Made by a program: the position numbers and the translations under genes | Shown here: positions 1,216 to 16,283 of the stretch, piece after piece | Layout: each line of letters opens with the position of its first letter | Numbering within the stretch: the stretch's first letter is position 1 | Virus genome (UHGV): UHGV-0153204 | Source of the DNA: a virus | Reading direction: 5' to 3' (one strand) | DNA: 16,283 bases | The notes under the pieces: generated by a model | Seen by the model: only the letters and a program-made list of their open reading frames with translations | The model's database searches: none | What the model was told of the DNA's origin: nothing

Positions 1216-2391
1216 ATGGATATAACTTGTTTAGAATGTGGCAATGTTCTTGACGACCCAACTGTAGCTTGCGATAAATGCGGTGCCACGCCTCATGTTG
1301 TAGCGCTGGGCAAACAATCGTACTTTCCTATTGGTGCTGTAACAGCAAATCTTGAAAAAAATGATTCAAGAGCATTTGATTATCGATTAGGTGAAGTTTG
1401 GGATCTAAAAAATGAAGTCACATCTGAATTCATAACCAGAATTGAGAAAAAATTTAGCCGAAAAAACAAATTTCATAACTTCCTAGACTCAGATCACAAC
1501 CCTTCATCCATTCCTACGATCCTAAAAAAATACATTAATAAAAATAATGAATTCATTGATTTATCTAGAGCTATAATAGAGAAGCTTAAACATAATGCTA
1601 ATAACGAATCGAGAGTTGCCCAACTTCAGGGGGGGAGCGTTGTTTTCATCCACTATAAGTCTACCGAACCAGAGGATTTGGGGAAACTTCTAATCGTAAT
1701 GGTTGATAAACAAAGCGCCTATGACTTTGATTCGGATAAGTTGACCCCAACAAGATTAAATCCAATTAATACCGATGCCTTACGGCAGGCTGCGATGTTC
1801 GATTTAACTTTATTCGAAGCCAGTTATCCAGAAAACAAGGGTGACTCATATGTACATTTCTTGCAAGGTAAATCTAAAAGCGATTTTTTCAAAGACTCAT
1901 TAGGTTGCCGACATGATTCGGACAATAAAAGAAGCATTCAGCAATTATTCAGTGCTATAGATATTTTTGCTAGTAAAAACTCACTCGGTCGTGTACTGCG
2001 TGATACTATTGACAATGAAGTTAAATCCTTACTGGAAAAAAAATCAAAAGATAAACACGGAAATAAGTCCGTTAAGATAGAGGATATTTCAAAAATAATT
2101 GACTCATGCCTGACTGATTCACACAAATGTAAGGGAACGTTTGTCGATTTTGTTAATCTTAATGGTTTCCAGATTGACCCTCAATTTGAACCAACTCCTA
2201 AAGCAGCTGAAAGCGCGCTTACAATTGAAGTGGCAGATAACGACAATAATTTTAAGTTGAAAATAATGCGTGGAGCTATTGGAGACGAAAAGTCAAATAA
2301 GCCTGTAATTCTCACTGACAACAAATGCGAAATTGTGATAAAATTGAGTCAGGCAAATTATGATGAACTCAAAAGATATAGAGACAGCTAA
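1216..2391 (+). CDS. Hypothetical protein: N-terminal CxxC...CxxC zinc ribbon plus NdpA/YejK-like nucleoid-associated-protein domain (candidate cassette gene A)
   Basis: 391 aa ORF, visibly AT-rich. N-terminus CLECG...(12 aa)...CDKCG. The central region GGSVVFIHYK...YVHFLQGKSKSDFFKDSLGC resembles the GGFVLFCHY...[23 protein letters not shown] block of E. coli YejK as I recall it. Needs HMM confirmation. Confidence 0.7.
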   Translation: MDITCLECGNVLDDPTVACDKCGATPHVVALGKQSYFPIGAVTANLEKNDSRAFDYRLGEVWDLKNEVTSEFITRIEKKFSRKNKFHNFLDSDHNPSSIPTILKKYINKNNEFIDLSRAIIEKLKHNANNESRVAQLQGGSVVFIHYKSTEPEDLGKLLIVMVDKQSAYDFDSDKLTPTRLNPINTDALRQAAMFDLTLFEASYPENKGDSYVHFLQGKSKSDFFKDSLGCRHDSDNKRSIQQLFSAIDIFASKNSLGRVLRDTIDNEVKSLLEKKSKDKHGNKSVKIEDISKIIDSCLTDSHKCKGTFVDFVNLNGFQIDPQFEPTPKAAESALTIEVADNDNNFKLKIMRGAIGDEKSNKPVILTDNKCEIVIKLSQANYDELKRYRDS

Positions 2392-2393
2392 TA

Positions 2394-3608
2394 ATGACAA
2401 TTGCTGATGACTTATCAAGATTAGCGCAGATTATTAACGGAGCCTCAAGCAGAGTTGAGGGCTACTACACTGTCATAAGTCTTGAAGAAAGCATTGTTAT
2501 TGTAAATAGTTCTGAAATAATTAGACTGTTACAATCTATAGGTTATAAAAAGGCAACAACCTGCATCGAAAATAATGAAATTTGGCTAGATCGCCAAGCT
2601 TCATCTTGGGATGATGCTATAATTTATGAGAATGTTGAGTCTTTTTGGTCTAGAGTAAACACCCAAAACGCTCTTCCGAAAAATTATATCATCGGAACGC
2701 CGTTAATACTCCCTACTTCTAAGAATGAAAGCATCGAAAAAATCCATATTTTCTTTATGTGGAAAGATATCCTTTCATTAATTTCTGATCATCATAACAG
2801 TGACTGCTCTGTCTTATTTTTCACCAATGAAGACAAAAGTTATACAGTCGAACTCACGCATTTTTTACAATATAGCGAGATTAATCGCTTATCGAACTCG
2901 TCTCTTAAATATGAAATTATAAAGGAGCTTCTCGACACAATAAAAATCAATGATTTACACAAAAGCGAGCGCAAGCTCGTTATACGCTCAGCCATAAACG
3001 AAGTATTTAAAGCAAATGGTACGTTCAATTTCTTTGACTTGCTTAACTCTACTGAACTCGTCAGGAAAAAATATGATGAACTATATGAGATTTACACAAA
3101 GAGGTTTTCTGTAAATAAAATTCTTAACGAACTCGATGAGAAAAATCTTGAGTTCACGAGTAAAATTAACGAATTCATATCATCTAATCAGACAAAAGCA
3201 TTGACTATTCCCGGTGCATTAATAGCAGCTGGTGGCTTAGTGAAGGCTAATGAAACAACCGAAGCAATATTGATTATCGCAGGACTTTGGATGATAAAAA
3301 AAGTCAATTACATTTCTATTGAGATATTCAATGAAACATTCGACAACTTACGTTCTCGAGTGGAGTCCGCTTTCGATAAGTATTTAAAGTTTGAAGAAAA
3401 TAAAGAAATCAAAGATAATGCAGATAGTATTAAGAGTAGCATTACAGGTTTGATTGATAAAGCTAAAAAAAGGATGAGAACTGTTAAATATCTCGCATCA
3501 GCCATGTTTTATGGAGGCCTTATTTACGTTGGATATAAACAGTTCCCAGTCTTTTTTGAAAAATCGGCAGTAAATCTATTTTATTTTTTATGCCATACTA
3601 TAAGCTAA
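2394..3608 (+). CDS. Hypothetical protein with predicted C-terminal membrane-spanning segments (candidate cassette gene B)
   Basis: 404 aa ORF starting 2 nt after the gene A stop (likely translationally coupled). AT-rich, Lys/Asn/Ile-rich. Hydrophobic segments ALTIPGALIAAGGLV / AILIIAGLWMI and YLASAMFYGGLIYVGY near the C-terminus. No recognisable catalytic motif by eye. Confidence 0.7.
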   Translation: MTIADDLSRLAQIINGASSRVEGYYTVISLEESIVIVNSSEIIRLLQSIGYKKATTCIENNEIWLDRQASSWDDAIIYENVESFWSRVNTQNALPKNYIIGTPLILPTSKNESIEKIHIFFMWKDILSLISDHHNSDCSVLFFTNEDKSYTVELTHFLQYSEINRLSNSSLKYEIIKELLDTIKINDLHKSERKLVIRSAINEVFKANGTFNFFDLLNSTELVRKKYDELYEIYTKRFSVNKILNELDEKNLEFTSKINEFISSNQTKALTIPGALIAAGGLVKANETTEAILIIAGLWMIKKVNYISIEIFNETFDNLRSRVESAFDKYLKFEENKEIKDNADSIKSSITGLIDKAKKRMRTVKYLASAMFYGGLIYVGYKQFPVFFEKSAVNLFYFLCHTIS

Positions 3609-6488: not shown

Positions 6489-7138
6489 GCCGCCATCTCC
6501 CTGACCAGTTTTTCCGCCTGCTGGCGAACCTGCGCCAGAAAGGCCTCACCACATGCCTCAAGTTCATCGCGCCCGATGTAGCTGATTGCCGATCCCTTCC
6601 AGGTCTTGTCGAAAACAGCAATGGCACCAGCGAAGAAAGCACCTGTCGGCACCTGCTTCTCGTCCTTCGGTATAAACCAGGCAGGTAGTTCAAAACCAAT
6701 ACGCCCGCGAATAAAAGCAATATGATCTGCATCTTCCGGCCACCACACTTCGCTGGTAGCTGCTTTGATCAAGAAAACATAGCGCCCGCCTTTATCACGC
6801 ATGGCACTGGCATGCTTCATGATGTAACGCATGCCGGTGATGTATTGCCCCTCATGCTGACTGGCGCGGCTGTATGGGGGATTACCAAAGGCAGCACCTT
6901 TAAGCTCCGCAAGACGTTCTGACCAGTCATGCGCCAGCGCGTTGTCTTCCGCCGTGTAATACGCGGCACATTTGGCGTTATCACCGTCAGTGAACAGATC
7001 CAGAACAAACGGGCCAAACAGGGTGTTAATTCCCCAGAAAATGTTGTCCGGCGTGCGCCACTGATCGCCCACTTCCTTCAGTTCATGGGCTGGTTTGTTC
7101 CGCAGTTCCACCAGCGCCTGCCAATATTTATTACTCAT
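6485..7138 (-). CDS. Phage N6-adenine DNA methyltransferase (Dam-type, NPPY motif)
   Basis: FGNPPYS motif (NPPY-type amino-methyltransferase motif IV) and overall resemblance to phage Dam-family proteins. The six-frame ORF starts at 7171; the Met at 7138 (MSNKYWQ...) overlaps the upstream stop by 1 nt and is the more likely start. Confidence 0.7.
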   Translation of the reverse strand: MSNKYWQALVELRNKPAHELKEVGDQWRTPDNIFWGINTLFGPFVLDLFTDGDNAKCAAYYTAEDNALAHDWSERLAELKGAAFGNPPYSRASQHEGQYITGMRYIMKHASAMRDKGGRYVFLIKAATSEVWWPEDADHIAFIRGRIGFELPAWFIPKDEKQVPTGAFFAGAIAVFDKTWKGSAISYIGRDELEACGEAFLAQVRQQAEKLVREMAA

Positions 7139-7632
7139 TAAGCCCCCACGTAATTCCCTGACAGATACCACTCATCACCCGATACAGCGCACTTGCTGCT
7201 TTTCCGTAAGCACCGCTCACGGCGCGCCAGAAAATTGTTTCGTTCTGGCTGGGAGTGGCTTTCACGGAATGCCGCCATCCACACGGTTGCAGCACGACGG
7301 TATAAGCCCCTGGACTCCAGTTCTTCAGCCTGGCGGGTCAGGCACAAAATTACCCGTGGATCGTTAGTGCCGACATAGAAATTGCGCACAGGTCTGGTTT
7401 CACGAACTGGTTGTGGTTCCGGCTCCTGCGCTCTCTCAGTCAGGCGCGGGAAATGTCTGCGTGTATCTCCTTCACAACGGTGATCCACACGCCCACTCTG
7501 ACGTAACTTGCTTGCTGACTGCAGAACGCGCTGCCGTGAGTAACCTGCAAAAGCATCCGCAATGTCTCCGGAAGTACACCCCGGATGGGCTTCAATGAAT
7601 TTCTGAACGTCATTTAACAGACTCATGATCAC
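7138..7632 (-). CDS. Hypothetical prophage protein, possibly PerC-like regulator
   Basis: 164 aa ORF, translationally coupled on both sides (ATGA overlap with the upstream gene). The segment LESRGLYRRAATVWMAAF is reminiscent of PerC-family proteins, but this is weak recall, not a confirmed match. Confidence 0.5.
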   Translation of the reverse strand: MIMSLLNDVQKFIEAHPGCTSGDIADAFAGYSRQRVLQSASKLRQSGRVDHRCEGDTRRHFPRLTERAQEPEPQPVRETRPVRNFYVGTNDPRVILCLTRQAEELESRGLYRRAATVWMAAFRESHSQPERNNFLARRERCLRKSSKCAVSGDEWYLSGNYVGA

Positions 7633-8540
7633 CCCCTGAATCCTGCCGGGATCTGGCTGTAGTCCACATTGTCGTAACTGGATTTGAAGTACGGGTCTTC
7701 GCGTTTTTCGGTGTACGTGCTTACGGACGGCGATAAGCGCAGGGAAAGCTCATCCCATTTTTCCCGCAGCTTCGACGGGCTGAGCACGTTACGGCACCAG
7801 AACGGAGCGCGGCTGACGCGGCTGTACATCTCGCAGATTTGTTTGTGAGTACGACCATCCTGCACACACATCAGGCGAATTTCGTTTGCCCAGGCTGTCC
7901 AGTTCGGTTCTTTGGGACGAACCACCTCGCCGTCACATTCGGCAGCCTGCTCGTACAGGGCGATGATTTTTTTCCAGAGCCACTGTGCGCAGGTCAAATC
8001 ATCCTGCGTCCCCCACTGGCGCTTTTTAGGGCTGAATACAACCGCATCAGGATGGCGAGTTAAAAAATCCTGTTCAGCCGTCTGCGTGTCCGGTTGCGAA
8101 GCGTCCGGACGAGAAGGTTTTTTATCTGACGGATCATGTTTTGATTTTACTGACGGATCCCCGCCAGATTCTGACGGGTGAAAACCCGCTTTTTTGCCAG
8201 ATTTCGACGCATCAAATTTTGACGGGTCAGAATCTGACAGTTGAGAAAATGCCGCTGCCTGAAGCTTCGCAACGTTAAGCTGATAAACATTCGACGCATT
8301 GCGGTTACCCTGGCGACGCGCCTTACGCGTTAACCAGCCTTCTGCTTCCAGCCGTGCGATAGCCGTTCTGACGGTACTCATCCCCGCGCCAATCTGACGG
8401 GCAATGGTTTCAATTGATGGCCAGCACACACCTTCGTCATTACTGAAATCAGCCAGGCGGGCCATAATTGCCACGCTGGATAACTTCATGCCTGATGCAG
8501 CGCAACCATCCCATACATAGCCGGTTAATTTAGTGCTCAT
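7629..8540 (-). CDS. Putative replication initiation protein (O-like, N-terminal winged HTH)
   Basis: 303 aa; N-terminal LSSVAIMARLADFSNDEGVCWPSIETIARQIGAGMSTVRTAIARLEAEGWL is a typical wHTH of phage replication initiators. A Ser/Pro/Lys/Asp-rich linker is followed by a conserved-looking C-terminal domain. Lies in the early-right operon below cro. Confidence 0.55.
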   Translation of the reverse strand: MSTKLTGYVWDGCAASGMKLSSVAIMARLADFSNDEGVCWPSIETIARQIGAGMSTVRTAIARLEAEGWLTRKARRQGNRNASNVYQLNVAKLQAAAFSQLSDSDPSKFDASKSGKKAGFHPSESGGDPSVKSKHDPSDKKPSRPDASQPDTQTAEQDFLTRHPDAVVFSPKKRQWGTQDDLTCAQWLWKKIIALYEQAAECDGEVVRPKEPNWTAWANEIRLMCVQDGRTHKQICEMYSRVSRAPFWCRNVLSPSKLREKWDELSLRLSPSVSTYTEKREDPYFKSSYDNVDYSQIPAGFRG

Positions 8541-8549
8541 GACCGACCT

Positions 8550-8888
8550 CTATTTCCCTGAATTTACGACGAAACTGTTCGAGCGGACTGAAGCATTCAT
8601 GCTCATAACCTTCGCGGAGGTAGATAACCCGTTGTGTTTCCGGCTCCCAACGAATGACTCTGACGGGCACTCCGTAGTGATCTTTGAACCAGCGGTTAAC
8701 TTGTCGCAAAGGACTGTCTCCTTCTGCCGGTTGAAATCACCCACAGCCCACTCTGCAAAGCTGTGGGTTACAATTTCCCTGTCACCTGGTACATTCACTG
8801 CATAGCAATATTCCACCTTCGCTTTTCCACCCGGTACAGGAAGCGCAATCAGTTGCGAGCGACGGTAGTGTGTTGTTAAACTGTTCAT
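8550..8888 (-). CDS. Hypothetical early protein with apparent frame disruption (possible pseudogene or overlapping genes)
   Basis: The N-terminal ~55 codons of the called ORF look protein-like. Downstream the called frame becomes Ser/Thr-rich and atypical, while an alternative minus-strand frame over roughly 8528..8730 encodes ...[62 protein letters not shown] and ends overlapping the O-like start. Confidence 0.35.
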
Positions 8889-9442
8889 GCGTTAGTTTCT
8901 CCACAACCAGAAGCAATCGACGCCACGACGCCCGGAGCTGCACACTCGCGGGCGTCATTACTTTCTGAAATGCAAAAAATTTTGTAGACAAGTGCTGCAT
9001 GCTCCTGCAGCTTCGAAATTGAGAGATACAGCTCGTCGTTAATTGCTGTCTTCTCATGCGGTTCCACCACACCGTCTTCGATTGCCGAACGAATCTGTTT
9101 GGAATAACTGCCAATCTGTTCAATGACTTCCAGCAGGCGCTGGTTAATATCGGCGTTATCCACATCCTCGACGTCAGGAAGAGACACAAAGACGCCATTT
9201 GCAGACTGCGCCACAGCGTCAGCAATGAAGTGAGTGCCACCAGCACGTTGTAAAATCATCGCCCATCCCAGCGGGAAAATTTGATCGCCATCGGCACGAA
9301 GGCGGTTAAATAATGCGTTCTCTGTTACATCCAGCCAGTCAGCTGCTTCAGCGTAACCCCCCGGCAACGCTGCGATAGTTTTTCTGACAGCTTTCACGTA
9401 CCACTTAGGCTGTTTTTCTACTTTCCAGTGATGCTTACCCAC
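8885..9442 (-). CDS. CII-like / YdaT-family regulator
   Basis: Likely GTG start at 9442 preceded by AGGAG (9453..9449); the longer six-frame ORF would overlap cro by 83 bp. Contains an HTH-like [18 protein letters not shown]. Position immediately after cro corresponds to cII/YdaT in lambdoid and Rac-type prophages. Confidence 0.5.
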
Positions 9443-9464
9443 GGCTATCTCCTTAAAACTGTGG

Positions 9465-9713
9465 TTACTTTTCATCTGATGAATCTTTAATCTTTTGAAA
9501 AATATCTGGACGTAATTTTTCTTTTGATATGCCAGTGGTCTTTTCAATGAATATCGAGAGCTTTGCAGGGGGACGCTTTTCTCTGTTCAACCAGTTCCAG
9601 ACATGTTGTTGCTTTACTAAATGACCGCTGCTGGCTGTGAGCTTCCGAGCCAATTCTGATTGACCACCAGCCAGAGCGATTGCCTCCGATAAGGCTAATT
9701 GCTCAGGTGTCAT
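9465..9713 (-). CDS. Cro / YdaS-like HTH transcriptional regulator
   Basis: 82 aa; HTH GGQSELARKLTASSGHLVKQQHVWNWLN. Divergently transcribed from the CI-like repressor across a repeat-rich operator region. Strong SD (AAAGGAGA) upstream. Confidence 0.75.
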   Translation of the reverse strand: MTPEQLALSEAIALAGGQSELARKLTASSGHLVKQQHVWNWLNREKRPPAKLSIFIEKTTGISKEKLRPDIFQKIKDSSDEK

Positions 9714-9848
9714 AGCTTTCTCCTTTTTTGGTAGTTAAGTTGTTACGAGTTGCAAGAATACAACATTAACAACTTTTATCACAACTTTTAGGTGTTGGAA
9801 AGCTAAAACATAAAGTTGTAACCTCATCAAAAAAGAGAGGGATATGTT
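9714..9848. promoter_or_regulatory. Divergent operator/promoter region between cro-like and cI-like genes (OR-like)
   Basis: Repeated inverted motifs: AAGTTGTTAC (9737..9746), TAACAACTT (9768..9776), ACAACTTTTA (9781..9790), TAAAGTTGTAAC (9811..9822). Sits between divergent regulator genes. Confidence 0.6.
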
Positions 9849-10535
9849 GTGAAAACACTGGCAGAACGATTAAAGATAGGTAGAGAGAAAGCTGGCATGA
9901 GCCAAGCTCAACTAGCTGAAAAAATTGGACTTTCACAACAATCTGTAGCCAAAATAGAGAATGGCGAAACTCTACAACCGCGCAAAATTAAAGAAATTGC
10001 AAAAGTTTTAGGTGTATCACAAAAGTGGTTACAACTTGGTATTGAAGACAACGCATCCATACCTGATCTTGTTGTAAAAGAAGCAGAAAGCACCGCATTA
10101 GACCCCGATATTTTCGTAAACATTCCTGTTTTAGATGTCGAGTTATCGGCAGGTAACGGATGTCTGGCTGAAATAGTTGAATCAGCTATTGACTGGTTTC
10201 CGTTAAGAAGAGCAGATTTGAGAAAATCTGGCGTATGTGCATCTAATGCCAAGATCGTAAAAATATGGGGGAACAGTTTATTACCGGTTCTCAATAATGG
10301 AGATCTTGTTGCCGTTGATATTTCTCAAACCGTTCCTATTCGTGATGGCGATCTTTATGCCGTACGAGATGGTGTATTGCTAAGGGTTAAAATACTTATC
10401 AACTTACCTGACGGTGGCTTGATTCTTAGAAGCTTCAACAAAGATGAGTACCCAGATGAAATACTTACCTTTGAAGATAGACGAGCCAGAATTCATGTTA
10501 TAGGTAGGGTATTCTGGTCATCGCGAACTTGGTAA
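9849..10535 (+). CDS. cI: CI-like prophage repressor (N-terminal XRE HTH + C-terminal S24 LexA-like peptidase domain)
   Basis: GTG start at 9849. HTH GMSQAQLAEKIGLSQQSVAKIENGE; C-terminal region with GNSLLP (Ser) and LRVKIL (Lys) typical of S24 autocleaving repressors. Confidence 0.85.
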   Translation: MKTLAERLKIGREKAGMSQAQLAEKIGLSQQSVAKIENGETLQPRKIKEIAKVLGVSQKWLQLGIEDNASIPDLVVKEAESTALDPDIFVNIPVLDVELSAGNGCLAEIVESAIDWFPLRRADLRKSGVCASNAKIVKIWGNSLLPVLNNGDLVAVDISQTVPIRDGDLYAVRDGVLLRVKILINLPDGGLILRSFNKDEYPDEILTFEDRRARIHVIGRVFWSSRTW

Positions 10536-11408
10536 TGCATCGAAAAGCATTTCTTCAGAAATAATTTTAAGTTTTGCACCATTATCATCTCTATAAGATA
10601 TAGCCTTTTCGATCTTCCTTCCGTGACTAGAGAATTTCCAATCACGGGAGGAAAGCGTCCCAATTACTAAAAAATCCAACTGTTGAGTAATTCCACTACT
10701 GATGTTCCCACCAGCATTTTTAATCAAATTTTCAACTACGGCTCTCTTTCCTGCAACAAAAGTGCCTGTAAGACAATAGGTTTTACCCTCTAACTCTATC
10801 GAAGCCTCTACATCAATAGGCAGCCTGGTCGCCAAACCATCCACCACCCCACTTTCCAAGTCACATCCTGTGAAGTCTACTAATGCCTTATGTAGAGTTA
10901 AACTCTCATCTTCAGTAATAACACCATCTTTAAGAATTTCCTTTACAAGTGCATAAAGTTTTTTTCCTGGGTAGTTGTTCTTCAAAGCTCCATTTTGCTC
11001 AAGCCACCAATTAAGATATCTTATTTCTTCTTGAGTTAAGTTCCGATCAGCAATTAATCCTTTACATAGTCCATTAAGTAAATGGACATCTACATCCTTG
11101 GAGTAAAAATCAATTTCAGGGATATCAAGAATTTCCCTCTGTATTTGGAGAAGGCTATTTTTAAGGTCATCACGTTCTTCTGATGTGATTATTCCATCCG
11201 CAAGAATATCCGACACCCGTGCAGATAGACTTTTTATAACTCCATTATTGATAATCTGCTTTGCTTCAAGTAACCATGTATCTAAGTAAAGAACCTCCTC
11301 TTCACGGACAACTCCATCTGCAATGATTCCATCAATGATGCTAATCAAGTTAGCAAATAACTTGTCCCGGTTCTGTGTGTAATTAAAAGCGTAAAGCGCG
11401 TCTTCCAT
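10518..11408 (-). CDS. Hypothetical protein: four tandem ~36-aa repeats plus C-terminal BRCT-like domain (immunity-region accessory gene)
   Basis: Likely start ATG at 11408 with perfect SD (AAAGGAGGttgtATG); the ORF track begins at 11438. Repeats share a hydrophobic-ADG-hydrophobic-(I/V)(T/R)xEE...L core (IIADGVVREEEV, ILADGIITSEER, LIADRNLTQEEI, ILKDGVITEDES). C-terminus GKTYCLTGTF...DFLVIGT...KLKIISEEMLFDAL resembles the LigA-type BRCT domain. AT-rich, convergent with cI. Confidence 0.7.
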   Translation of the reverse strand: MEDALYAFNYTQNRDKLFANLISIIDGIIADGVVREEEVLYLDTWLLEAKQIINNGVIKSLSARVSDILADGIITSEERDDLKNSLLQIQREILDIPEIDFYSKDVDVHLLNGLCKGLIADRNLTQEEIRYLNWWLEQNGALKNNYPGKKLYALVKEILKDGVITEDESLTLHKALVDFTGCDLESGVVDGLATRLPIDVEASIELEGKTYCLTGTFVAGKRAVVENLIKNAGGNISSGITQQLDFLVIGTLSSRDWKFSSHGRKIEKAISYRDDNGAKLKIISEEMLFDALPSSR

Positions 11409-11439
11409 ACAACCTCCTTTTTTTGATAATCCTTGCACT

Positions 11440-11530
11440 CCTTGGCCACTCGTTCAAACCACATAAAGTTGTTGACAACATTCAAAACCACAACTAAATT
11501 ACAACTTAAAGGTGTTAAAACAACGAACAG
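11440..11530. promoter_or_regulatory. Second operator-like region (OL-like) with consensus-like plus-strand promoter
   Basis: Shares ACATAAAGTTGT and ACAACTT(T/A)(T/A)AGGTGTT blocks with the cro/cI intergenic region. TTGACA (11472..11477), 17-bp spacer, TAAATT (11495..11500) on the plus strand. Also upstream of the minus-strand BRCT gene. Confidence 0.45.
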
Positions 11531-11613
11531 GCAGGACGCCCACGAAGTAGCCCGCCTGGTACGTACGAAGACCGGGATGATTCGTTAGCGGATGATTTCA
11601 GTGGAGAGAATAG

Positions 11614-11922
11614 ATGAATGAGCAGAATTTGAAGCATGTGATCGCATTGTTGCTGGAAGACGCTAAACGTTTGCAGCAGATAGAGCCAAATGCAGGCACT
11701 GAGGCCCGTATTTTGTTAGCAAAACAGGCATTAAAGACTTGCGGGGCGCAAGACCCTGATCGAACCAAGTTCATGAATTTCATGGCTAACACGATCACCC
11801 CCCTGCCATGCAATGGAGAGAGGGTGAGCCGTGTTTATCACGACACAATGGTTAAGGCATTAAGAATCGAGCTTGATGGGCTTAGGCGTAAGATCGTGAT
11901 GAACAAAATCGTTGCCAACTAA
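11614..11922 (+). CDS. Hypothetical early-left protein
   Basis: 102 aa ORF with SD GGAGAG 5 nt upstream; helical-looking composition. First gene downstream of the OL-like promoter. No recognisable family; not similar to lambda N by eye. Confidence 0.45.
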   Translation: MNEQNLKHVIALLLEDAKRLQQIEPNAGTEARILLAKQALKTCGAQDPDRTKFMNFMANTITPLPCNGERVSRVYHDTMVKALRIELDGLRRKIVMNKIVAN

Positions 11923-12203
11923 GGAAGCAGACGGAAGTAAGCATGCGCTTTGTTCAAATTTGCAGACAAATATATTTGCGTCAACACCAGCACTGTTAGC
12001 AATGGAAAAAGTTTGATCAAGGATTTGTTGGCAGTTCATTGTGCTTTTGAGGATATATCCCTCTGGAATCAGTCTGCAGCAGCTATCGTCAGACTCTTTG
12101 ATTGTTTTCTGGTACAGAAAGTTAAGCATTAATTCTTCAAATTTTTTGGTCTGTTCGGCTGTTGCTTCAAACAGACGAACGTGAACATAAAACTGGTTCA
12201 TTA
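11860..12203 (-). CDS. Hypothetical protein (minus strand, overlaps 3' end of preceding plus-strand ORF)
   Basis: Best start ATG at 12203 with SD AAGGAAACC. N-terminal MNQFYVHVRLFEATAEQTKKFEELMLNFLYQK looks protein-like. 63-bp convergent overlap with 11614..11922 means at least one of the two may be mis-called. Confidence 0.4.
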
Positions 12204-12299
12204 GGTTTCCTTGCTGGCTGTGTGAGAACTCCAGCATACCACCGAGCCTGAAGTGGTGAAAAGACAGGCAATAGTTTCATTGCTGTGTGTAGTCTTGGA

Positions 12300-12345
12300 G
12301 GTACCAGCTTGTACCCTTGCTTCCGGCTGGTACCGTCCTTTTTAC
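12300..12345 (+). terminator. Putative intrinsic terminator (plus strand)
   Basis: Perfect 9-bp inverted repeat GGTACCAGC (12300..12308) / GCTGGTACC (12326..12334), 17-nt loop, followed by GTCCTTTTTAC. Confidence 0.4.
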
Positions 12346-12556
12346 AAAACAGAGAAGAGCATCACCGGACGACGAGCTCATAACCCAATCCATCCGGGCG
12401 GCTGCCACCGCAGGTGTTCTTCTCTGTTTTGTGGAGAAACTAACCGCCCCTACGGGGGCATTCATGGAAATGTAATTGACTCAATAATCGCCGGACGGTG
12501 AGGGCTTTCTTTTACCCGAATTCAGCGCGGTGCAGCGCATATACGTGGAGAACAAA

Positions 12557-13093
12557 ATGTCATTTATTACAACTTTTTCTGGGAAGCATTTTTATTATGA
12601 CAGGATAAATAAAGACGACATCGTTATTAACGATATCGCGGTTTCCCTTTCAAATATCTGCCGCTTTGCAGGACACCTTTCACACTTCTATAGCGTCGCC
12701 CAACATGCGGTGCTTTGCAGCATGCTGGTACCGCAGGAATTTGCTTTTGAAGCATTAATGCATGATGCAACAGAAGCGTATTGCCAGGACATCCCCGCAC
12801 CACTGAAACGCCTTCTTCCTGACTATAAACGGATGGAAGAAAAAATAGACGCCGTAATCCGTGAGAAATACGGGTTACCTCAGGCTATGAGCACGCCCGT
12901 GAAATATGCCGATCTCATCATGCTGGCAACCGAACGCCGCGATCTCGGGCTTGATGATGGCTCTTTCTGGCCAGTATTGGAAGGTATCCCGGCAACAGAG
13001 ATGTTCGAAGTTATTCCTCTGGCTCCTGGCCATGCCTACGAGATATTTATGGAACGTTTTAAAGAGCTGCATAAGATACATAAGCAATCCTGA
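12557..13093 (+). CDS. HD-domain phosphohydrolase (YfdR-like)
   Basis: H...HD motif (VAQHAVLC...LMHDATEAY) and size are consistent with the prophage HD-domain 5'-deoxynucleotidase family (CPS-53 YfdR-like). Start at 12557 (SD GGAGAA) preferred over the ORF-track start 12530. Confidence 0.6.
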   Translation: MSFITTFSGKHFYYDRINKDDIVINDIAVSLSNICRFAGHLSHFYSVAQHAVLCSMLVPQEFAFEALMHDATEAYCQDIPAPLKRLLPDYKRMEEKIDAVIREKYGLPQAMSTPVKYADLIMLATERRDLGLDDGSFWPVLEGIPATEMFEVIPLAPGHAYEIFMERFKELHKIHKQS

Positions 13094-13133
13094 CAGCGAA
13101 ATTAACTAGTGAAATAGTTTTGTAGCAAAAGAA

Positions 13134-13394
13134 ATGAGGTTATCAAAAATGCTTCAAATGCTGACACTTGAAGAATGGGCTGCGGAAAAATTTAGGAGTA
13201 ATCCTCCAAGTGTGTCCACATTGCGTCGTTATGCTAAGCAGAATTTATTTTGTCCACCAGCAATGAAACAAGGTCGACTCTGGCGAGTACGTGAGGACGC
13301 AGAGTTAGTTGGGGAATTAGTTACTCCAGTAATCAAGAAAAGTGATTCTATTATTCTGCAAAGGATTTTAAGCAATGGCAGCCAGACCACGTAA
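13134..13394 (+). CDS. xis: Excisionase Xis
   Basis: MLTLEEWAAEKFRS...LRRYAKQNLFCPPAMKQGRLW parallels lambda Xis (MYLTLQEWNARQRR...VRRWVRECRIFPPPVKDGREY). Overlaps the int start as in lambda. True start may be 13149 or 13158 rather than 13134. Confidence 0.8.
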   Translation: MRLSKMLQMLTLEEWAAEKFRSNPPSVSTLRRYAKQNLFCPPAMKQGRLWRVREDAELVGELVTPVIKKSDSIILQRILSNGSQTT

Positions 13395-14502
13395 AAATAA
13401 TGTTTCAGTACCTAACTTGTATCCGCTTTATAGTAGAAAAGTAAATAAAGTCTATTGGCGATATAAGCATCCAGTGACCGGGAAATTTCATTCGTTGGGC
13501 ACAAATGAAGCTGAAGCTATTGCTATTGCCACTGAAGCTAACACTCGTCTGGCTGAGCAAAGAACCCGGCAGATTCTAGCTATCAGTGATAGGATCGCAA
13601 CCAGCAAAGGAAAAGCGATCACAACGTCAACCTGGTTAGATCGTTATCAAGCGATCCAGGATGACAGGCTCAAAAGTGGTGATATAAGACTCAACACCTA
13701 TAAGCAAAAAGCTAAACCAGTATCCTTGCTCAGAGAACGAGCAGGAATGAAGTTGATCTCATCCGTTGATGTTAGAGATATAGCACAATTGCTTGATGAG
13801 TATATTGCAGCTGGACAGCCTAGAATGGCCCAAGTCGTTAGGTCTGTATTGATCGATGTGTTTAAGGAAGCACAGCATTATGGCGAAGTTCCGCCAGGGT
13901 ATAACCCTGCTCTTGCGACGAAGCAACCCAAAAGAAAAATTACCCGTCAACGCCTCAGCCTGGAAGAATGGCAAAAAATATTCGATATAGCAGACGCCAA
14001 TCATCGTTACATGGGAAATGCCATGCTCCTAGCTTTGGTCACTGGGCAGCGTTTGGGAGATATATCCAAAATGAAATTTAGTGATATTTGGGAAGATCAT
14101 CTTCACGTCATTCAGGAAAAGACTGGAAGCAAAATCGCTATCCCTCTTTCTCTTCGCCTCAATGCGATTAACTGGAGTTTACGCGATGTTGTAGCGCGCT
14201 GCCGAGACTATGCGGTTAGCCCATATTTAGTGCATTTTTTCCGTGCAACATCACAGGCAGAACGTGGCGCACAAGTTAAATCCAATACATTGACGATGAA
14301 TTTTAGTAAAGCGAGAGATTTAGCAGGAATTGACTGGGGAGAAGGTTCACCTGCCACATTCCATGAACAAAGGTCTTTATCTGAACGTCTGTACAAAGAA
14401 CAGGGGTTAGATACACAAAAACTACTTGGCCATAAAACACAGCGACAGACAGATCGATACAATGACGACCGAGGCAAAGGATGGAACAAGATAGCGTTGT
14501 AA
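13375..14502 (+). CDS. int: Tyrosine recombinase, lambda-family integrase
   Basis: 375 aa, colinear with lambda Int by eye (PNLY, HSWLDRY, VVTGQRVGD-like LVTGQRLGD, catalytic C-terminal HKTQRQTDRYNDDRGKGWNKIAL versus lambda HKSDTMASQYRDDRGREWDKIEI, including the tyrosine). Confidence 0.93.
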   Translation: MAARPRKNNVSVPNLYPLYSRKVNKVYWRYKHPVTGKFHSLGTNEAEAIAIATEANTRLAEQRTRQILAISDRIATSKGKAITTSTWLDRYQAIQDDRLKSGDIRLNTYKQKAKPVSLLRERAGMKLISSVDVRDIAQLLDEYIAAGQPRMAQVVRSVLIDVFKEAQHYGEVPPGYNPALATKQPKRKITRQRLSLEEWQKIFDIADANHRYMGNAMLLALVTGQRLGDISKMKFSDIWEDHLHVIQEKTGSKIAIPLSLRLNAINWSLRDVVARCRDYAVSPYLVHFFRATSQAERGAQVKSNTLTMNFSKARDLAGIDWGEGSPATFHEQRSLSERLYKEQGLDTQKLLGHKTQRQTDRYNDDRGKGWNKIAL

Positions 14503-14843
14503 AAATTTTAAACGCCTCTACGCCACCGCAAATTTATCACCATACATGAAAAAGAAGCAAACAGTCTGTTTTGAGAAGCAGAAGTTATATTCAATTTCTA
14601 TCCTCTGGTGTTCCCTAATGAAATACCAGCCTCCATTGGCCATTACCAGAATACTGGTATCATGGTAGGAAATGTTCGAAAAGGATTAATGACGAATCGC
14701 ATCAGAGCAGCGGCAAGAACCGCCAGTACTACAGGATGCAGGATGCGGGATGCGGGAGTATCGGCGGTACAAGGTTATCTTTGATCAGTGAACTTCTTTA
14801 AGATTACATCTCTTTTATAGTTTTAAGCAACTATGAAGTGGCT

Positions 14844-15434
14844 TTACTCACCATCATCTAATTCGTTTAAAAATCTGGCAAGAACATCTCCGTGGCACGG
14901 ATAGGGTTTGCAATGGCAACCAAGGATTTTTCCTTTATGTGCTTTCAGCTTTTCTTTGAAATCCTCTCCCCCTTTTAAAAAATTTCTATCAAAGTCATAC
15001 TTAAACTTTCTTATAACTTCATCACGATCACCATCTGCTCCAATCGCATAAGGATTACCCCATAAAGTACCGCGACCGCAATATACATCGAAGTGTTCCC
15101 CCCTGTCTTTATTGGATACAAAAGTAATTTTGTCTTTTATATACCTTACGGGAATTTGTGATGCTAACGTTTCATAAATTGTTGTGAACTCAGGTTTCAA
15201 AGCTGAATCAAAAACAACGGCATGCGTTAAACCAAGATTATAAGGATCTGTAAGAAGGTCAGGATCAAGTTTAAAAATCAAATCAGAAGAAAAATAGTCA
15301 TGTATCAAGTTCTGGTTATCTTCAAAATAAAATACTTTGTATTCACTCGATTCGGAGAAGATACGGGTAAGCTTTCGCTCAAACTTACCCTTTGAAGCAA
15401 AATCAGGATGATACATAACTAGTACTTTCATCAT
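14844..15434 (-). CDS. DUF4326-like domain protein with N-terminal extension
   Basis: C-terminal FDVYCGRGTLWGNPYAIG...GKILGCHCKPYPCHGDVLARFL matches the DUF4326 signature as I recall it (..CGRP..WGNPF...L.C.C.P.pCHGDVL). AT-rich. ATGA-type overlap with the upstream DUF488-like gene. Confidence 0.55.
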   Translation of the reverse strand: MMKVLVMYHPDFASKGKFERKLTRIFSESSEYKVFYFEDNQNLIHDYFSSDLIFKLDPDLLTDPYNLGLTHAVVFDSALKPEFTTIYETLASQIPVRYIKDKITFVSNKDRGEHFDVYCGRGTLWGNPYAIGADGDRDEVIRKFKYDFDRNFLKGGEDFKEKLKAHKGKILGCHCKPYPCHGDVLARFLNELDDGE

Positions 15435-15871
15435 ATTAAATGCTTAACCTCAAAATCTGCATCCCAGTGCTTGTTCAGATATTCTATCACAAGACGACGA
15501 TGACAGTGATGGGGTTTGTGCTCACTACATAACAAGCAACCGTCAGAGATTAAGCTCTTATCAATACGTTCAATATTCCTTTTTTCCATAAGATTCAGAA
15601 AGTTATCTTCGTAAACTTCCCACGAAACATTACCTTTTTTATAAGGGTCGAGTATCTCTTTAGTTGGGGCGAGCTCTGGAACATGGGCGTAATCTACCCC
15701 GCACAACTCACGAAGGAAAAATTCGAGGTCCTTCTTTTTAGCAAAACCAGCAAGTTGCGACACGTTATTTAGCCGGACATCAACTAGGGTTTTGATTGGC
15801 TGCGACTTAATCAAGGTAAAAAATTTTTCAGCAGTTTTTTCAGTAAAGCCAATTGAGTATATCTTCAACAT
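15431..15871 (-). CDS. DUF488-like domain protein
   Basis: 146 aa; MLKIYSIGFTEKTAEKFFTLIK...LVDVRLNNVSQLAGFAKK...LLCSEHKPHHCHRRLVIEYL fits the DUF488 family pattern as recalled. Same operon as the DUF4326-like gene. Confidence 0.55.
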   Translation of the reverse strand: MLKIYSIGFTEKTAEKFFTLIKSQPIKTLVDVRLNNVSQLAGFAKKKDLEFFLRELCGVDYAHVPELAPTKEILDPYKKGNVSWEVYEDNFLNLMEKRNIERIDKSLISDGCLLCSEHKPHHCHRRLVIEYLNKHWDADFEVKHLI

Positions 15872-16240
15872 AGTATGTCTGCTATAAGTTTATAATGGAA
15901 ACCACCAAAAGTATCTAAAGCAAGACTAATGGTGATATAAGCATTCTCATGAATATGTGTACCTAATGGTTTGTTTTCATAATAATCTAACCAATAAATA
16001 TCTGTGATTTTTAAATTGTAAGTAGTGCCGTTATATACAAACTCGCCTCTTAGCTTTAATTTATCGCCCCATTTAGATGCATAGATTGTTAGTTCTCCAA
16101 CATAAATAAAATATAAACTTTCATCAATTTCTTGGGCTTCTTGAGGAGTTACTTGATCGTTGATCCCACCACCAGACTCATTATTATTATCCCACAATGA
16201 ATCTGGGGTGTCGCATAATAAAGATAATGCGGCGTCTGTA
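15865..16240 (-). CDS. Hypothetical protein, 5'-truncated (N-terminus lost at contig end; apparent start is adapter-derived)
   Basis: The ORF as called begins MCIRDS..., encoded by the Nextera mosaic-end sequence at 16241..16259, so the real gene is incomplete at its 5' end. Remaining sequence is AT-rich with no recognisable domain. Confidence 0.4.
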
Positions 16241-16283
16241 CTGTCTCTTATACACATCTGACGCTGCCGACGACTTAATAGGT
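16241..16283. other. Illumina Nextera transposase adapter read-through (non-biological)
   Basis: 16241..16273 is CTGTCTCTTATACACATCTGACGCTGCCGACGA, i.e. the Tn5 mosaic end CTGTCTCTTATACACATCT plus Nextera adapter tail. The following CTTAATAG + GT is consistent with an 8-nt index and the start of the flow-cell primer segment. Confidence 0.93.

What the first reader, a model, noticed from the sequence alone, without database searches (positions are those of the whole stretch)
14844..16240. AT-rich DUF488 / DUF4326 operon just outside the integrase-att end
Past the integrase and a ~340-bp non-coding stretch lies a minus-strand operon of three overlapping genes (partial unknown, DUF488-like, DUF4326-like), with base composition unlike the phage backbone. 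Both domain families are poorly characterised, and the DUF4326-like protein carries a ~100-aa N-terminal extension. This could be a host-side island at the integration site or prophage cargo, and the truncated first gene hides the operon's upstream part.
Basis: partly seen in the sequence, partly recalled or inferred. Interest (0 to 1): 0.5.

Follow-up and report, generated by a model that had tools for sequence, protein, structure and literature searches.

The report
Prophage-borne DuOB–DUF488–DUF4326 candidate defence operon
The AT-rich operon next to the integrase is a rare three-gene cassette (a DNA-binding double-OB protein plus two phosphatase-like enzymes) that sits inside an e14-type E. 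coli prophage, in the slot where related prophages carry known anti-phage systems, so it is most likely an untested anti-phage defence system that was already predicted computationally.

Summary
Three overlapping minus-strand genes lie at 14844-16240, at 36% GC, after a 341-bp gap from the integrase. HMMs confirm DUF4326 and DUF488. They also name the two unknown parts: the ~100-aa N-terminal extension is a minimal SLOG domain, and the truncated first gene is the C-terminal half of a Dual-OB (DuOB) protein. That gene is cut by an Illumina Nextera adapter (16241-16283), which also supplies its false start "MCIRD".

The interpretation "outside the att end / host island" is wrong. In the one complete E. 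coli genome with the same cassette, and in a sibling IMG/VR prophage, the operon lies between intE and the icd attachment site. Related e14-family prophages carry Lit, DarTG, PD-Lambda-5, Tmn or PDC-S06 in that slot.

The triad DuOB → DUF488-N3a → mSLOG-DUF4326 keeps its order from Enterobacterales to Pseudomonas and Methylococcales. It always rides on prophages, satellites, plasmids or islands, and only 14 of 5426 complete E. coli genomes have any version. DuOB evolves much faster than the two enzymes and occurs fused to RecQ helicases, an AAA_13 ATPase and DUF488.

Best reading: an experimentally untested defence cassette acting on DNA ends or ssDNA, matching dedicated Pfam families and partly PADLOC candidate PDC-M45.

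The parts
13134..13394 (+). xisE-type excisionase. Together with int and the operon it forms a 3.2-kb module that is 99.97% identical in E. coli SC487.
   Evidence: Pfam Exc 47.5 bits. Window 13053-16240 matches L001 10551-13738 at 99.97%.
13375..14502 (+). intE-type (lambda-family) tyrosine integrase of an e14-family prophage that integrates into icd.
   Evidence: Pfam Arm-DNA-bind_1 127.5 bits and Phage_integrase 65.9 bits. Annotated intE in related genomes with icd downstream.
14503..14575 (.). Conserved segment downstream of int, shared by e14-family prophages. It is the left border of the variable cargo slot.
   Evidence: Homology of L001 to L010 and L011 runs to 73 nt past the int stop and then breaks. 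Hits H2/H5/H6 end at window 14563; hits H3/H4 and H7-H11 end at 14500.
14576..14843 (.). Non-coding 3' flank of the cargo cassette. Positions 14748-14843 are conserved with the 88%-identical alleles. An imperfect GC hairpin at 14719-14768 may act as a terminator.
   Evidence: Megablast of the window against L090 and L093 starts at 14748/14749. Inverted repeat I2. The fold is not better than shuffles, z = -0.4. No Rfam match.
14844..15434 (-). Gene 3: mSLOG (residues 1-106) fused to DUF4326 (residues 108-186), 196 aa. Invariant motifs are YxGRG...WGNPY and GCHCKPxxCHGD, plus a C-terminal acidic DDG(E/K) tail.
15431..15871 (-). Gene 2: DUF488 of the 'active N3' subclade, 146 aa. Invariant motifs are DxRLN..SQ and CLLCSE..P..CHRR.
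   Evidence: Pfam DUF488 89.7 bits and DUF488-N3a 39.9 bits. PADLOC PDC-M45C 8.3e-68. Invariant columns.
15865..16240 (-). Gene 1, 3' part only: the C-terminal ~125 codons of a 220-aa DuOB (dual OB-fold) protein. The N-terminal OB is missing because the contig ends here.
   Evidence: Pfam DuOB 91.6 bits, profile 91-210. The full gene is in L001 13363-14025 (182.7 bits) and L089. PADLOC PDC-M45A 9.8e-25.
16241..16283 (.). Illumina Nextera adapter read-through (mosaic end, tail and the reverse complement of i5 index S518). This is not genomic sequence, and it creates the false start codon and the 'MCIRD' N-terminus.
   Evidence: The sequence itself. Homology to L001 and L089 ends at 16240. The adapter identity comes from my own knowledge.

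Best explanation
The region is the accessory ('moron') cargo of an e14-family lambdoid prophage of E. coli. It sits in the variable slot between the integrase gene and the attL site in icd.

The cargo is a self-contained, translationally coupled three-gene cassette: DuOB (two OB folds), then DUF488-N3a, then mSLOG-DUF4326. I take it to be an anti-phage defence system.

Proposed mechanism (inferred, not shown):
- The fast-evolving DuOB subunit recognises single-stranded DNA or exposed DNA ends of an infecting phage.
- These enzymes remove, transfer or cap terminal phosphate or sugar-phosphate groups. The mSLOG domain may hold a nucleotide- or ADP-ribose-derived ligand as substrate or signal.
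- The phage DNA can then no longer be ligated, circularised or replicated.

Status of each step:
- Shown here: domain identities, operon conservation, mobile-element and hotspot location, rarity, rate asymmetry, and DuOB fusions.
- Inferred: the defence role.
- Speculative: the chemistry.
For: 1. Identity. Pfam hits for all three proteins are well above their cut-offs. The catalytic-type motifs are invariant across 20-55 homologues.

2. Unit. The gene order DuOB, DUF488-N3a, mSLOG-DUF4326 with overlapping or abutting genes recurs widely:
- Klebsiella, Pseudomonas, Enterobacter and a second E. coli allele.
- Small Citrobacter and Acinetobacter plasmids.
- Most species-representative loci that have a full-length gene 3, including Methylococcales, where the upstream ORF is a divergent DuOB.
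- 15 IMG/VR prophage-like contigs.
- Flanking genes differ between loci, so no fourth conserved partner exists.

3. Location. In SC487 the cassette lies between intE and icd, inside the icd-repeat boundaries. Prophages with the window's backbone or with intE relatives carry other cargo in the same slot:
- Lit (PADLOC 8.5e-124).
- DarT/DarG (1.4e-42 / 6.6e-58).
- PD-Lambda-5 methylase plus ATPase (1.9e-121).
- Tmn (1.1e-50).
- PDC-S06 (E = 0).
- An Sll1717-type ATPase.
All sampled cargos are AT-rich, 31-36% GC. In Pseudomonas the triad abuts P4-like satellite genes. In Enterobacter it lies next to the terminase of another prophage.

4. Rarity. 14 of 5426 complete E. coli genomes carry any version.

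5. PADLOC lists DuOB and this DUF488 as candidate system PDC-M45 A and C.

6. DuOB as a DNA-end or ssDNA sensor:
- Fusions exist to RecQ helicases, an AAA_13/SMC ATPase, a wHTH and DUF488 itself.
- Against the SC487 copy, DuOB identity is 54/29/28/39%, DUF488 is 93/84/86/65% and gene 3 is 91/66/67/47% (Enterobacter, Klebsiella, second E. coli allele, Pseudomonas).

7. Literature. [quoted passage not shown] The Burroughs and Aravind 2023 paper (cited, text not held) predicts DNA-end processing by this clade; that statement rests on my own recollection.
Against: - No experiment on this cassette, on DuOB or on PDC-M45 was found.
- No component is an obvious effector such as a nuclease, NADase, pore or protease.
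- Gene 3 has no PADLOC model, and the PDC-M45B component is absent.
- The DUF488-DUF4326 relationship is seen here only as a 20-column shared motif (hhalign probability 30%).
- Solo DUF4326 is very common in lytic phages (1806 records), and a SLOG-like anti-Avs protein has DUF4326-fused homologues. The same domains are therefore also used on the phage side.
- The hotspot argument is guilt by association.
- The window itself stops before att, so the position inside the prophage is inferred from SC487 and L089.
Confidence: 0.6

Rival explanations
1. Counter-defence or signal-scavenging module that benefits the carrying element. mSLOG binds an immune nucleotide or ADPr-derived signal (as the ThsA SLOG binds 3'cADPR), DUF4326 and DUF488 destroy it, and this protects the prophage, plasmid or satellite from host immunity.
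For: - Solo DUF4326 occurs in 1806 isolated phage genomes, mostly lytic T4-like or jumbo phages, and in 61 large IMG/VR contigs.
- Homologues of the anti-Avs protein ORF83 carry a C-terminal DUF4326.
- DUF4326 is predicted to process ADPr-derived phosphates.
- A variant triad sits beside csm6, csx16 and cas1 on an Allochromatium plasmid.
Against: - A DNA-binding DuOB subunit, conserved in every triad and fused elsewhere to RecQ and AAA_13 ATPases, is not needed for degrading a small molecule.
- The full triad is absent from 50,697 isolated phage genomes.
- In temperate elements it occupies a slot otherwise filled with defence systems.
- The fast-evolving DuOB fits target recognition better.
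Confidence: 0.15
2. Stabilisation or addiction (toxin-antitoxin-like) module of mobile elements, with no role in phage infection.
For: It is found on small plasmids next to ccdAB, parA and rep genes. It always rides on mobile elements. The genes are small and translationally coupled.
Against: There is no similarity to known toxins or antitoxins in Pfam, NCBIfam or PADLOC. Three conserved enzyme or DNA-binding components with invariant catalytic-type motifs are atypical for TA pairs. Many defence systems share the same genomic contexts.
Confidence: 0.08
3. DNA-end or nucleotide-repair accessory used by the element for its own life cycle, for example processing ends during excision, replication or packaging.
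For: It lies adjacent to xis-int here and to the terminase in Enterobacter. The DuOB-RecQ fusions suggest DNA repair or replication contexts.
Against: Sibling prophages with the same backbone lack it and carry unrelated cargo instead, so it is dispensable for the phage cycle. It also occurs on plasmids, satellites and islands with unrelated replication modes.
Confidence: 0.07
4. Host-side chromosomal island or core metabolic locus flanking the prophage.
For: It lies beyond the integrase and has a different base composition.
Against: In SC487 it lies inside the icd-repeat boundaries. The host flank is icd-rluE-nudJ, and genomes with sibling prophages lack the cassette. Only 14 of 5426 E. coli genomes have any version.
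Confidence: 0.02

Closest known systems
DuOB / DUF488-N3 / mSLOG-DUF4326 predicted conflict system (Pfam PF22557, PF22751, PF22565, PF14216; Burroughs & Aravind 2023, NAR Genom Bioinform 5:lqad029. The paper's text is not held, so its content is from my own recollection.)
   Same: All four domain models hit above their cut-offs. The gene order is the same and the active-type DUF488-N3a motif is intact.
   Different: There is no difference in architecture. What this analysis adds is the placement in the e14 int-icd hotspot and the rate asymmetry of DuOB. No biochemical or phenotypic data exist for any member.
PADLOC candidate system PDC-M45 (A = DuOB, B = ~204-aa DUF488 paralogue, C = ~145-aa DUF488)
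   Same: DuOB matches PDC-M45A (9.8e-25) and the DUF488 protein matches PDC-M45C (8.3e-68). An A-B-C type locus was seen on the Allochromatium plasmid.
   Different: The third gene here is mSLOG-DUF4326, which matches no PADLOC model. There is no separate PDC-M45B gene. This is therefore a sister architecture in which a DUF4326 enzyme replaces the second DUF488.
Lit, DarTG, PD-Lambda-5, Tmn and PDC-S06 cargo of e14-family prophages
   Same: They occupy the same genomic slot (intE stop +73 nt to about 107 nt before the icd stop), have the same AT-rich composition, and ride on the same or related prophage backbones. DarT, like the proposed DuOB system, targets ssDNA (established knowledge of DarTG).
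   Different: There is no sequence or domain relationship. Those systems have experimentally shown or clearer effector activities.
SLOG-domain sensors and enzymes (ThsA of Thoeris, YpsA, LOG, DprA)
   Different: It is a minimal version of about 105 aa with its own conserved residues (K17, R20, K21, D39, T70-H71). There is no SIR2 or TIR partner. The similarity is only at fold level (5-13% identity).
Solo DUF4326 proteins of lytic and jumbo phages and NCLDVs
   Same: They share the DUF4326 core with the WGNPY and CHC..CH motifs, at 35-48% identity over about 90 residues.
   Different: The phage versions are about 100 aa (median ORF 107 aa), have no mSLOG in most cases, and lack DuOB and DUF488 neighbours. 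They often lie near nrd genes and probably serve the phage side.

Membership tests
DuOB-DUF488-N3-DUF4326 predicted conflict system | A DuOB (dual OB) protein is encoded first in the operon. | tested here: met
   PF22557 scores 91.6 bits on the truncated window copy (profile 91-210) and 182.7 bits on the full 220-aa copy in L001. AF2 predicts a largely beta-stranded fold consistent with OB domains, pLDDT 93.4.
DuOB-DUF488-N3-DUF4326 predicted conflict system | A DUF488 of the active N3 subclade with its conserved Cys/Glu/His/Arg motif. | tested here: met
   PF04343 89.7 bits and PF22751 39.9 bits (cut-off 27). C112, C115, E117, P120, C123, H124, R125 and R126 are invariant in 20 homologues.
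DuOB-DUF488-N3-DUF4326 predicted conflict system | A minimal SLOG domain fused N-terminally to DUF4326. | tested here: met
   PF22565 59.3 bits (residues 1-106) and PF14216 79.5 bits (residues 108-186). The architecture is constant in 120 listed homologues.
DuOB-DUF488-N3-DUF4326 predicted conflict system | A conserved three-gene operon carried on mobile elements. | tested here: met
DuOB-DUF488-N3-DUF4326 predicted conflict system | Enzymatic processing of nucleic-acid termini or ribose phosphates. | not testable with these tools
   Only motif conservation is available, and no solved structure or assay exists.
PADLOC PDC-M45 | PDC-M45A (DuOB) is present. | tested here: met
   9.8e-25 on the window fragment.
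PADLOC PDC-M45 | PDC-M45C (short DUF488) is present. | tested here: met
   8.3e-68, covering 2-145 of the protein and 1-144 of the 145-position profile.
PADLOC PDC-M45 | PDC-M45B (a ~204-aa second DUF488 paralogue) is present as a separate gene. | tested here: not met
   The only B hit is a secondary match of the same DUF488 protein (1.1e-12). The third gene has no PADLOC hit. A true A-B-C locus looks like L015.
Anti-phage defence system (general) | Resides in a defence island or hotspot of mobile elements. | tested here: met
   The e14 int-icd slot holds Lit, DarTG, PD-Lambda-5, Tmn and PDC-S06 in relatives. In Pseudomonas the context is a P4-like satellite.
Anti-phage defence system (general) | Reduces phage plating or propagation when expressed. 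| not testable with these tools
   No published test was found.
Thoeris-like SLOG signalling | A SLOG sensor coupled to a TIR signal producer and a SIR2 or membrane effector. | tested here: not met
   There is no TIR or SIR2 domain in the operon or among its conserved neighbours. Only fold-level SLOG similarity is seen.
Rhodanese-phosphatase superfamily, RapZ-C/DUF488/DUF4326 clade | A shared Rossmannoid fold and active-site loop between DUF488 and DUF4326. | tested here: inconclusive
   hhalign finds only a 20-column shared C-x-P-x-x-C-H...YLN motif, with probability 30% and E 5.6e-4. No solved relative exists to compare against.

The most novel reading that the evidence does not exclude
The triad is a mechanistically new kind of immunity. 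A hypervariable dual-OB sensor binds phage ssDNA or genome termini and directs two rhodanese-phosphatase-like enzymes to modify the DNA ends chemically. They could dephosphorylate the ends or cap them with a nucleotide- or ADP-ribose-derived group supplied through the mSLOG domain. Circularisation or replication is then blocked without a nuclease or a cell-killing effector. The invariant acidic C-terminal tail of gene 3 (DDG-E/K) might occupy the OB cleft, like an SSB tail, until DNA displaces it.
Probability: 0.2. Interest if true: 0.75.

Novelty: new member of a known kind. Interest (0 to 1): 0.4.

Why it matters
If the cassette protects against phages, it would give a first phenotype and a tractable E. 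coli model for three families with no experimental function: DuOB, DUF488-N3 and mSLOG-DUF4326. DUF4326 is also widespread in lytic and giant viruses. It would also show what chemistry this branch of the rhodanese-phosphatase superfamily performs on nucleic acids.

The comparison further documents the intE-icd interval of e14-family prophages as a swap-in slot for defence systems. That makes it a useful place to mine for further candidates. As it stands, the finding is a correct but already computationally predicted candidate system, not a new kind of element.

Tried and rejected
- The key paper (Burroughs & Aravind 2023) could not be read by DOI, a guessed PMC id or a PubMed id. Its content is therefore cited only from memory, from the Pfam family names, and from its citation.
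- Literature searches for DUF488+DUF4326, PDC-M45, DuOB and 'dual OB' gave no experimental work. A cold-seep study validated other PDC systems but not this one.
- NCBIfam has no model for any of the three proteins.
- PDB sequence searches found nothing. The peptide deformylase hits at E~0.4 are chance. Foldseek against PDB found nothing at E <= 0.001.
- The first genome-contig scan, with the DuOB alignment, confirmed no locus. The rescue scan with the gene-3 alignment worked.
- My narrow DuOB HMM missed the Methylococcales DuOBs. Pfam showed they are divergent DuOB (43-45 bits). The '1%' identity for L036 is an alignment artefact and is not used.
- In the 341-bp spacer, promoter and terminator scans were at the level expected from shuffles, repeats were short, there was no Rfam family, and the fold z-score was -0.4. 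Nothing beyond a possible weak terminator hairpin is claimed.
- An att site in the spacer was considered and rejected. No icd-like repeat occurs between int and the operon in L001.
- Tandem prophage integration was considered as the origin of the integrase remnant in L001. It is not supported by any intervening att copy and was left open.
Full report
**Observation**

The window holds three minus-strand ORFs at 14844-15434, 15431-15871 and 15865-16257. They overlap by 4 and 7 nt, which is typical of translational coupling. They follow a 341-bp stretch without credible ORFs after the integrase stop at 14502. The operon is 36.3% GC, against 44.9% for the window and 52.4% for the phage early region. 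The coordinates and the composition claim are therefore correct.

One correction is needed. Positions 16241-16283 read CTGTCTCTTATACACATCTGACGCTGCCGACGA-CTTAATAG-GT. I recognise this from my own knowledge as the Illumina Nextera mosaic end and tail, followed by the reverse complement of i5 index S518. Homology to two independent genomic copies stops exactly at 16240. The first gene is therefore cut by adapter read-through at the contig end. Its apparent start 'MCIRD' is adapter-encoded.

**Domain identities**

- Gene 3 is a minimal SLOG domain (PF22565, 59.3 bits, residues 1-106) fused to DUF4326 (PF14216, 79.5 bits, residues 108-186).
- Gene 2 is DUF488 (89.7 bits) of the 'active DUF488-N3' subclade (PF22751, 39.9 bits).
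- Gene 1 is the C-terminal 56% of a Dual-OB (DuOB, PF22557) protein. The full 220-aa gene in the matching genome scores 182.7 bits.

NCBIfam has no model for any of the three. PADLOC recognises gene 2 as PDC-M45C (8.3e-68) and gene 1 as PDC-M45A (9.8e-25), but has no model for gene 3.

**Where the operon sits**

Only one of 5426 complete E. coli genomes carries this allele: strain SC487, at 99.9% identity. In that genome the gene order is as follows:
- icdC' pseudogene, mcrA, pinE, tail-fibre genes, xisE, int;
- then the 341-bp spacer, mSLOG-DUF4326, DUF488 and DuOB;
- then a 150-bp remnant of another integrase, a 204-aa hypothetical gene, and icd.

The duplicated icd 3' end (L001 15028-15243 versus 6668-6883, 91% identity) marks the two ends of an e14-type element. 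The operon lies about 1 kb inside it.

The window shares only xis-int-operon with SC487 (13053-16240, 99.97%). Its remaining backbone matches other icd-integrated prophages at 98-99% up to the integrase stop. An IMG/VR viral contig (L089, 35.1 kb) matches window 6871-16240 at up to 99.75% and carries the complete DuOB gene.

**The slot is a defence hotspot**

Aligning three such prophages shows that homology breaks 73 nt after the int stop (window ~14575). It resumes about 107 nt before the icd stop. Between these borders, sampled relatives carry different cargo:

| Strain | Cargo between intE and icd | PADLOC E-value |
|---|---|---|
| K-12 | lit, ymfE, ymfD | Lit 8.5e-124 |
| MS1679 | DarG / DarT | 6.6e-58 / 1.4e-42 |
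| GF131 | PD-Lambda-5 methylase plus ATPase | 1.9e-121 |
| PCP06173 | Tmn-like YobI NTPase | 1.1e-50 |
| PSS-08-2 | PDC-S06 ATPase plus an LmuA-like protein | 0 |
| A42 | Sll1717-type ATPase | no hit |
| AMSHJX01 | two unknown genes | no hit |

The measured cargos are 31-36% GC. The reading 'outside the att end / host island' is therefore not supported. The operon is cargo in a defence hotspot of e14-family prophages.

**The cassette as a unit**

Gene 3 has hundreds of full-length homologues with the same mSLOG-DUF4326 architecture, in Enterobacterales, Aeromonas and Pseudomonas. The order DuOB, DUF488-N3a, mSLOG-DUF4326 is kept in every context examined, while the flanking genes differ:
- Klebsiella: an island with a resolvase, IS3, HigB and an integrase.
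- Pseudomonas: next to P4-like satellite genes.
- Enterobacter: next to the terminase of another prophage.
- A second E. coli allele: on an integrase island.
- Small Citrobacter and Acinetobacter plasmids.
- Most species-representative loci with a full-length gene 3. These include Methylococcales, where the upstream gene is a divergent DuOB.
- 15 prophage-like IMG/VR contigs, mostly near a contig end.

A sister architecture, DuOB plus a 202-aa DUF488 plus a 145-aa DUF488-N3a, lies beside csm6, csx16 and cas1 on an Allochromatium plasmid. It corresponds to PADLOC's PDC-M45 A/B/C.

In E. coli, 14 of 5426 complete genomes have any version. DuOB is absent from 50,697 isolated phage genomes. Solo ~100-aa DUF4326 proteins, in contrast, are common in lytic phages (1806 records).

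**Clues to mechanism**

*Conserved motifs.* Gene 3 keeps YxGRG...WGNPY and GCHCKPxxCHGD invariant, plus a C-terminal DDG(E/K) tail. Its mSLOG part keeps K17, F18, R20, K21, D39 and T70-H71. DUF488-N3a keeps DxRLN..SQ and CLLCSE..P..CHRR. A profile-profile comparison links the two enzymes only through the shared C-x-P-x-x-CH...YLN motif (probability 30%).

*Structure models.* The AF2 models are confident: pLDDT 93.8 for gene 3 and 93.4 for DuOB.
- No solved structure resembles the DUF4326 part.

*Family size and fusions.* An exhaustive profile search finds about 2700 DuOB clusters at 50% identity, mostly solo proteins of about 220 aa. Informative fusions exist:
- RecQ helicase (DEAD-HelC-RecQ_Zn-RQC-HRDC) plus DuOB;
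- AAA_13/SMC ATPase plus DuOB;
- wHTH plus DuOB;
- DuOB plus DUF488.

*Rates of change.* DuOB diverges far faster than its partners. Against the SC487 copy:

| Compared locus | DuOB | DUF488 | mSLOG-DUF4326 |
|---|---|---|---|
| Enterobacter | 54% | 93% | 91% |
| Klebsiella | 29% | 84% | 66% |
| Second E. coli allele | 28% | 86% | 67% |
| Pseudomonas | 39% | 65% | 47% |

This pattern is expected for a specificity or sensor subunit.

**Interpretation**

I conclude that this is a prophage-borne candidate anti-phage system. DuOB probably binds ssDNA or DNA ends and recruits or activates the two rhodanese-phosphatase-like enzymes. mSLOG probably holds a nucleotide- or ADPr-derived ligand.

Published predictions fit this reading. 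DUF4326 is proposed to process terminal phosphates on the ribose of ADPr derivatives and to bridge NAD-based signalling with DNA modification (PMC9503650; PMC7824862). By my own recollection, the Burroughs and Aravind 2023 paper proposes DNA-end processing for this clade; its citation was seen but its text is not held.

The defence role is inferred from location and distribution. The chemistry is speculative.

The main rival is a counter-defence or signal-scavenging role. It draws support from the abundance of solo DUF4326 in lytic phages and from DUF4326-fused homologues of the SLOG-like anti-Avs protein ORF83. The obligatory DNA-binding DuOB, and the absence of the triad from isolated phages, argue against it.

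**Novelty**

The triad corresponds exactly to dedicated Pfam families and partly to PADLOC candidate PDC-M45. It is therefore a new member, in a newly documented hotspot, of a computationally known but experimentally untested kind. Interest is moderate. The system is directly testable in E. coli, and a positive result would give a first function to three widespread families.

Noticed in passing
window 16241-16283: Illumina Nextera adapter (mosaic end, tail and the reverse complement of i5 index S518) forms the contig end. It creates a false ATG and an 'MCIRD' N-terminus for the last ORF. The assembly was made from untrimmed reads.
   Followed up: yes
window 1216-3608 (+): A second AT-rich (34.8% GC) two-gene insert lies between the lysis genes and the Q antiterminator. 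It encodes an NA37-family nucleoid-associated protein (84.5 bits) and a 404-aa protein with no Pfam or PADLOC match. The same insert is present in sibling prophages (A42, MS1679). It could be another moron or defence candidate.
   Followed up: partly
window 10518-11438 (-): A 306-aa BRCT-domain protein (28.9 bits) with a weak PADLOC PDC-S48 match (2.4e-07) is encoded convergently, right after the cI-like HTH/Peptidase_S24 repressor (9849-10535). The region is AT-rich, about 38% GC. A similar BRCT gene sits in the same place in strain PCP06173.
   Followed up: partly
L001 14175-14324 and 14341-14955 (E. coli SC487): Between the DuOB gene and icd lie a 150-bp remnant of a second integrase 3' end (74% identical to the resident int) and a 204-aa gene with no family match. 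This suggests the cargo slot was rebuilt by recombination at integrase 3' ends. No att copy lies in between.
   Followed up: partly
window 13053-16240 versus L001 10551-13738: The xis-int-operon module is 99.97% identical between two prophages whose remaining backbones are unrelated: a full lambdoid prophage here and a degraded K-12-like e14 in SC487. This indicates recent exchange of the whole integration-plus-cargo module.
   Followed up: partly
L015 3471-5195 (Allochromatium tepidum plasmid pAt1): A DuOB + DUF488 + DUF488-N3a variant (PADLOC PDC-M45-like) is wedged between csx16/cas1 and csm6 of a type III CRISPR-Cas locus. This hints at a possible link to cyclic-oligoadenylate signalling. 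It is a single example.
   Followed up: no
phage collection hits H14-H38; loci L104-L165: Solo DUF4326 proteins of about 100 aa occur in 1806 isolated phage genomes (T4-like, jumbo and others), often next to nrdA/nrdB genes. PHROGs files them under phrog_464 (unknown function).
   Followed up: no
proteins P0214, P0263, P0224, P0277: DuOB occurs as a C-terminal domain of RecQ-type helicases and of an AAA_13/SMC-like ATPase, and is fused directly to DUF488. These architectures could be separate uncharacterised systems.
   Followed up: partly
window 14734-14757: A short run of three GGATGC(R)G-like units lies inside an imperfect 19-nt inverted repeat (14719-14768) in the spacer. No significance could be shown.
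   Followed up: partly
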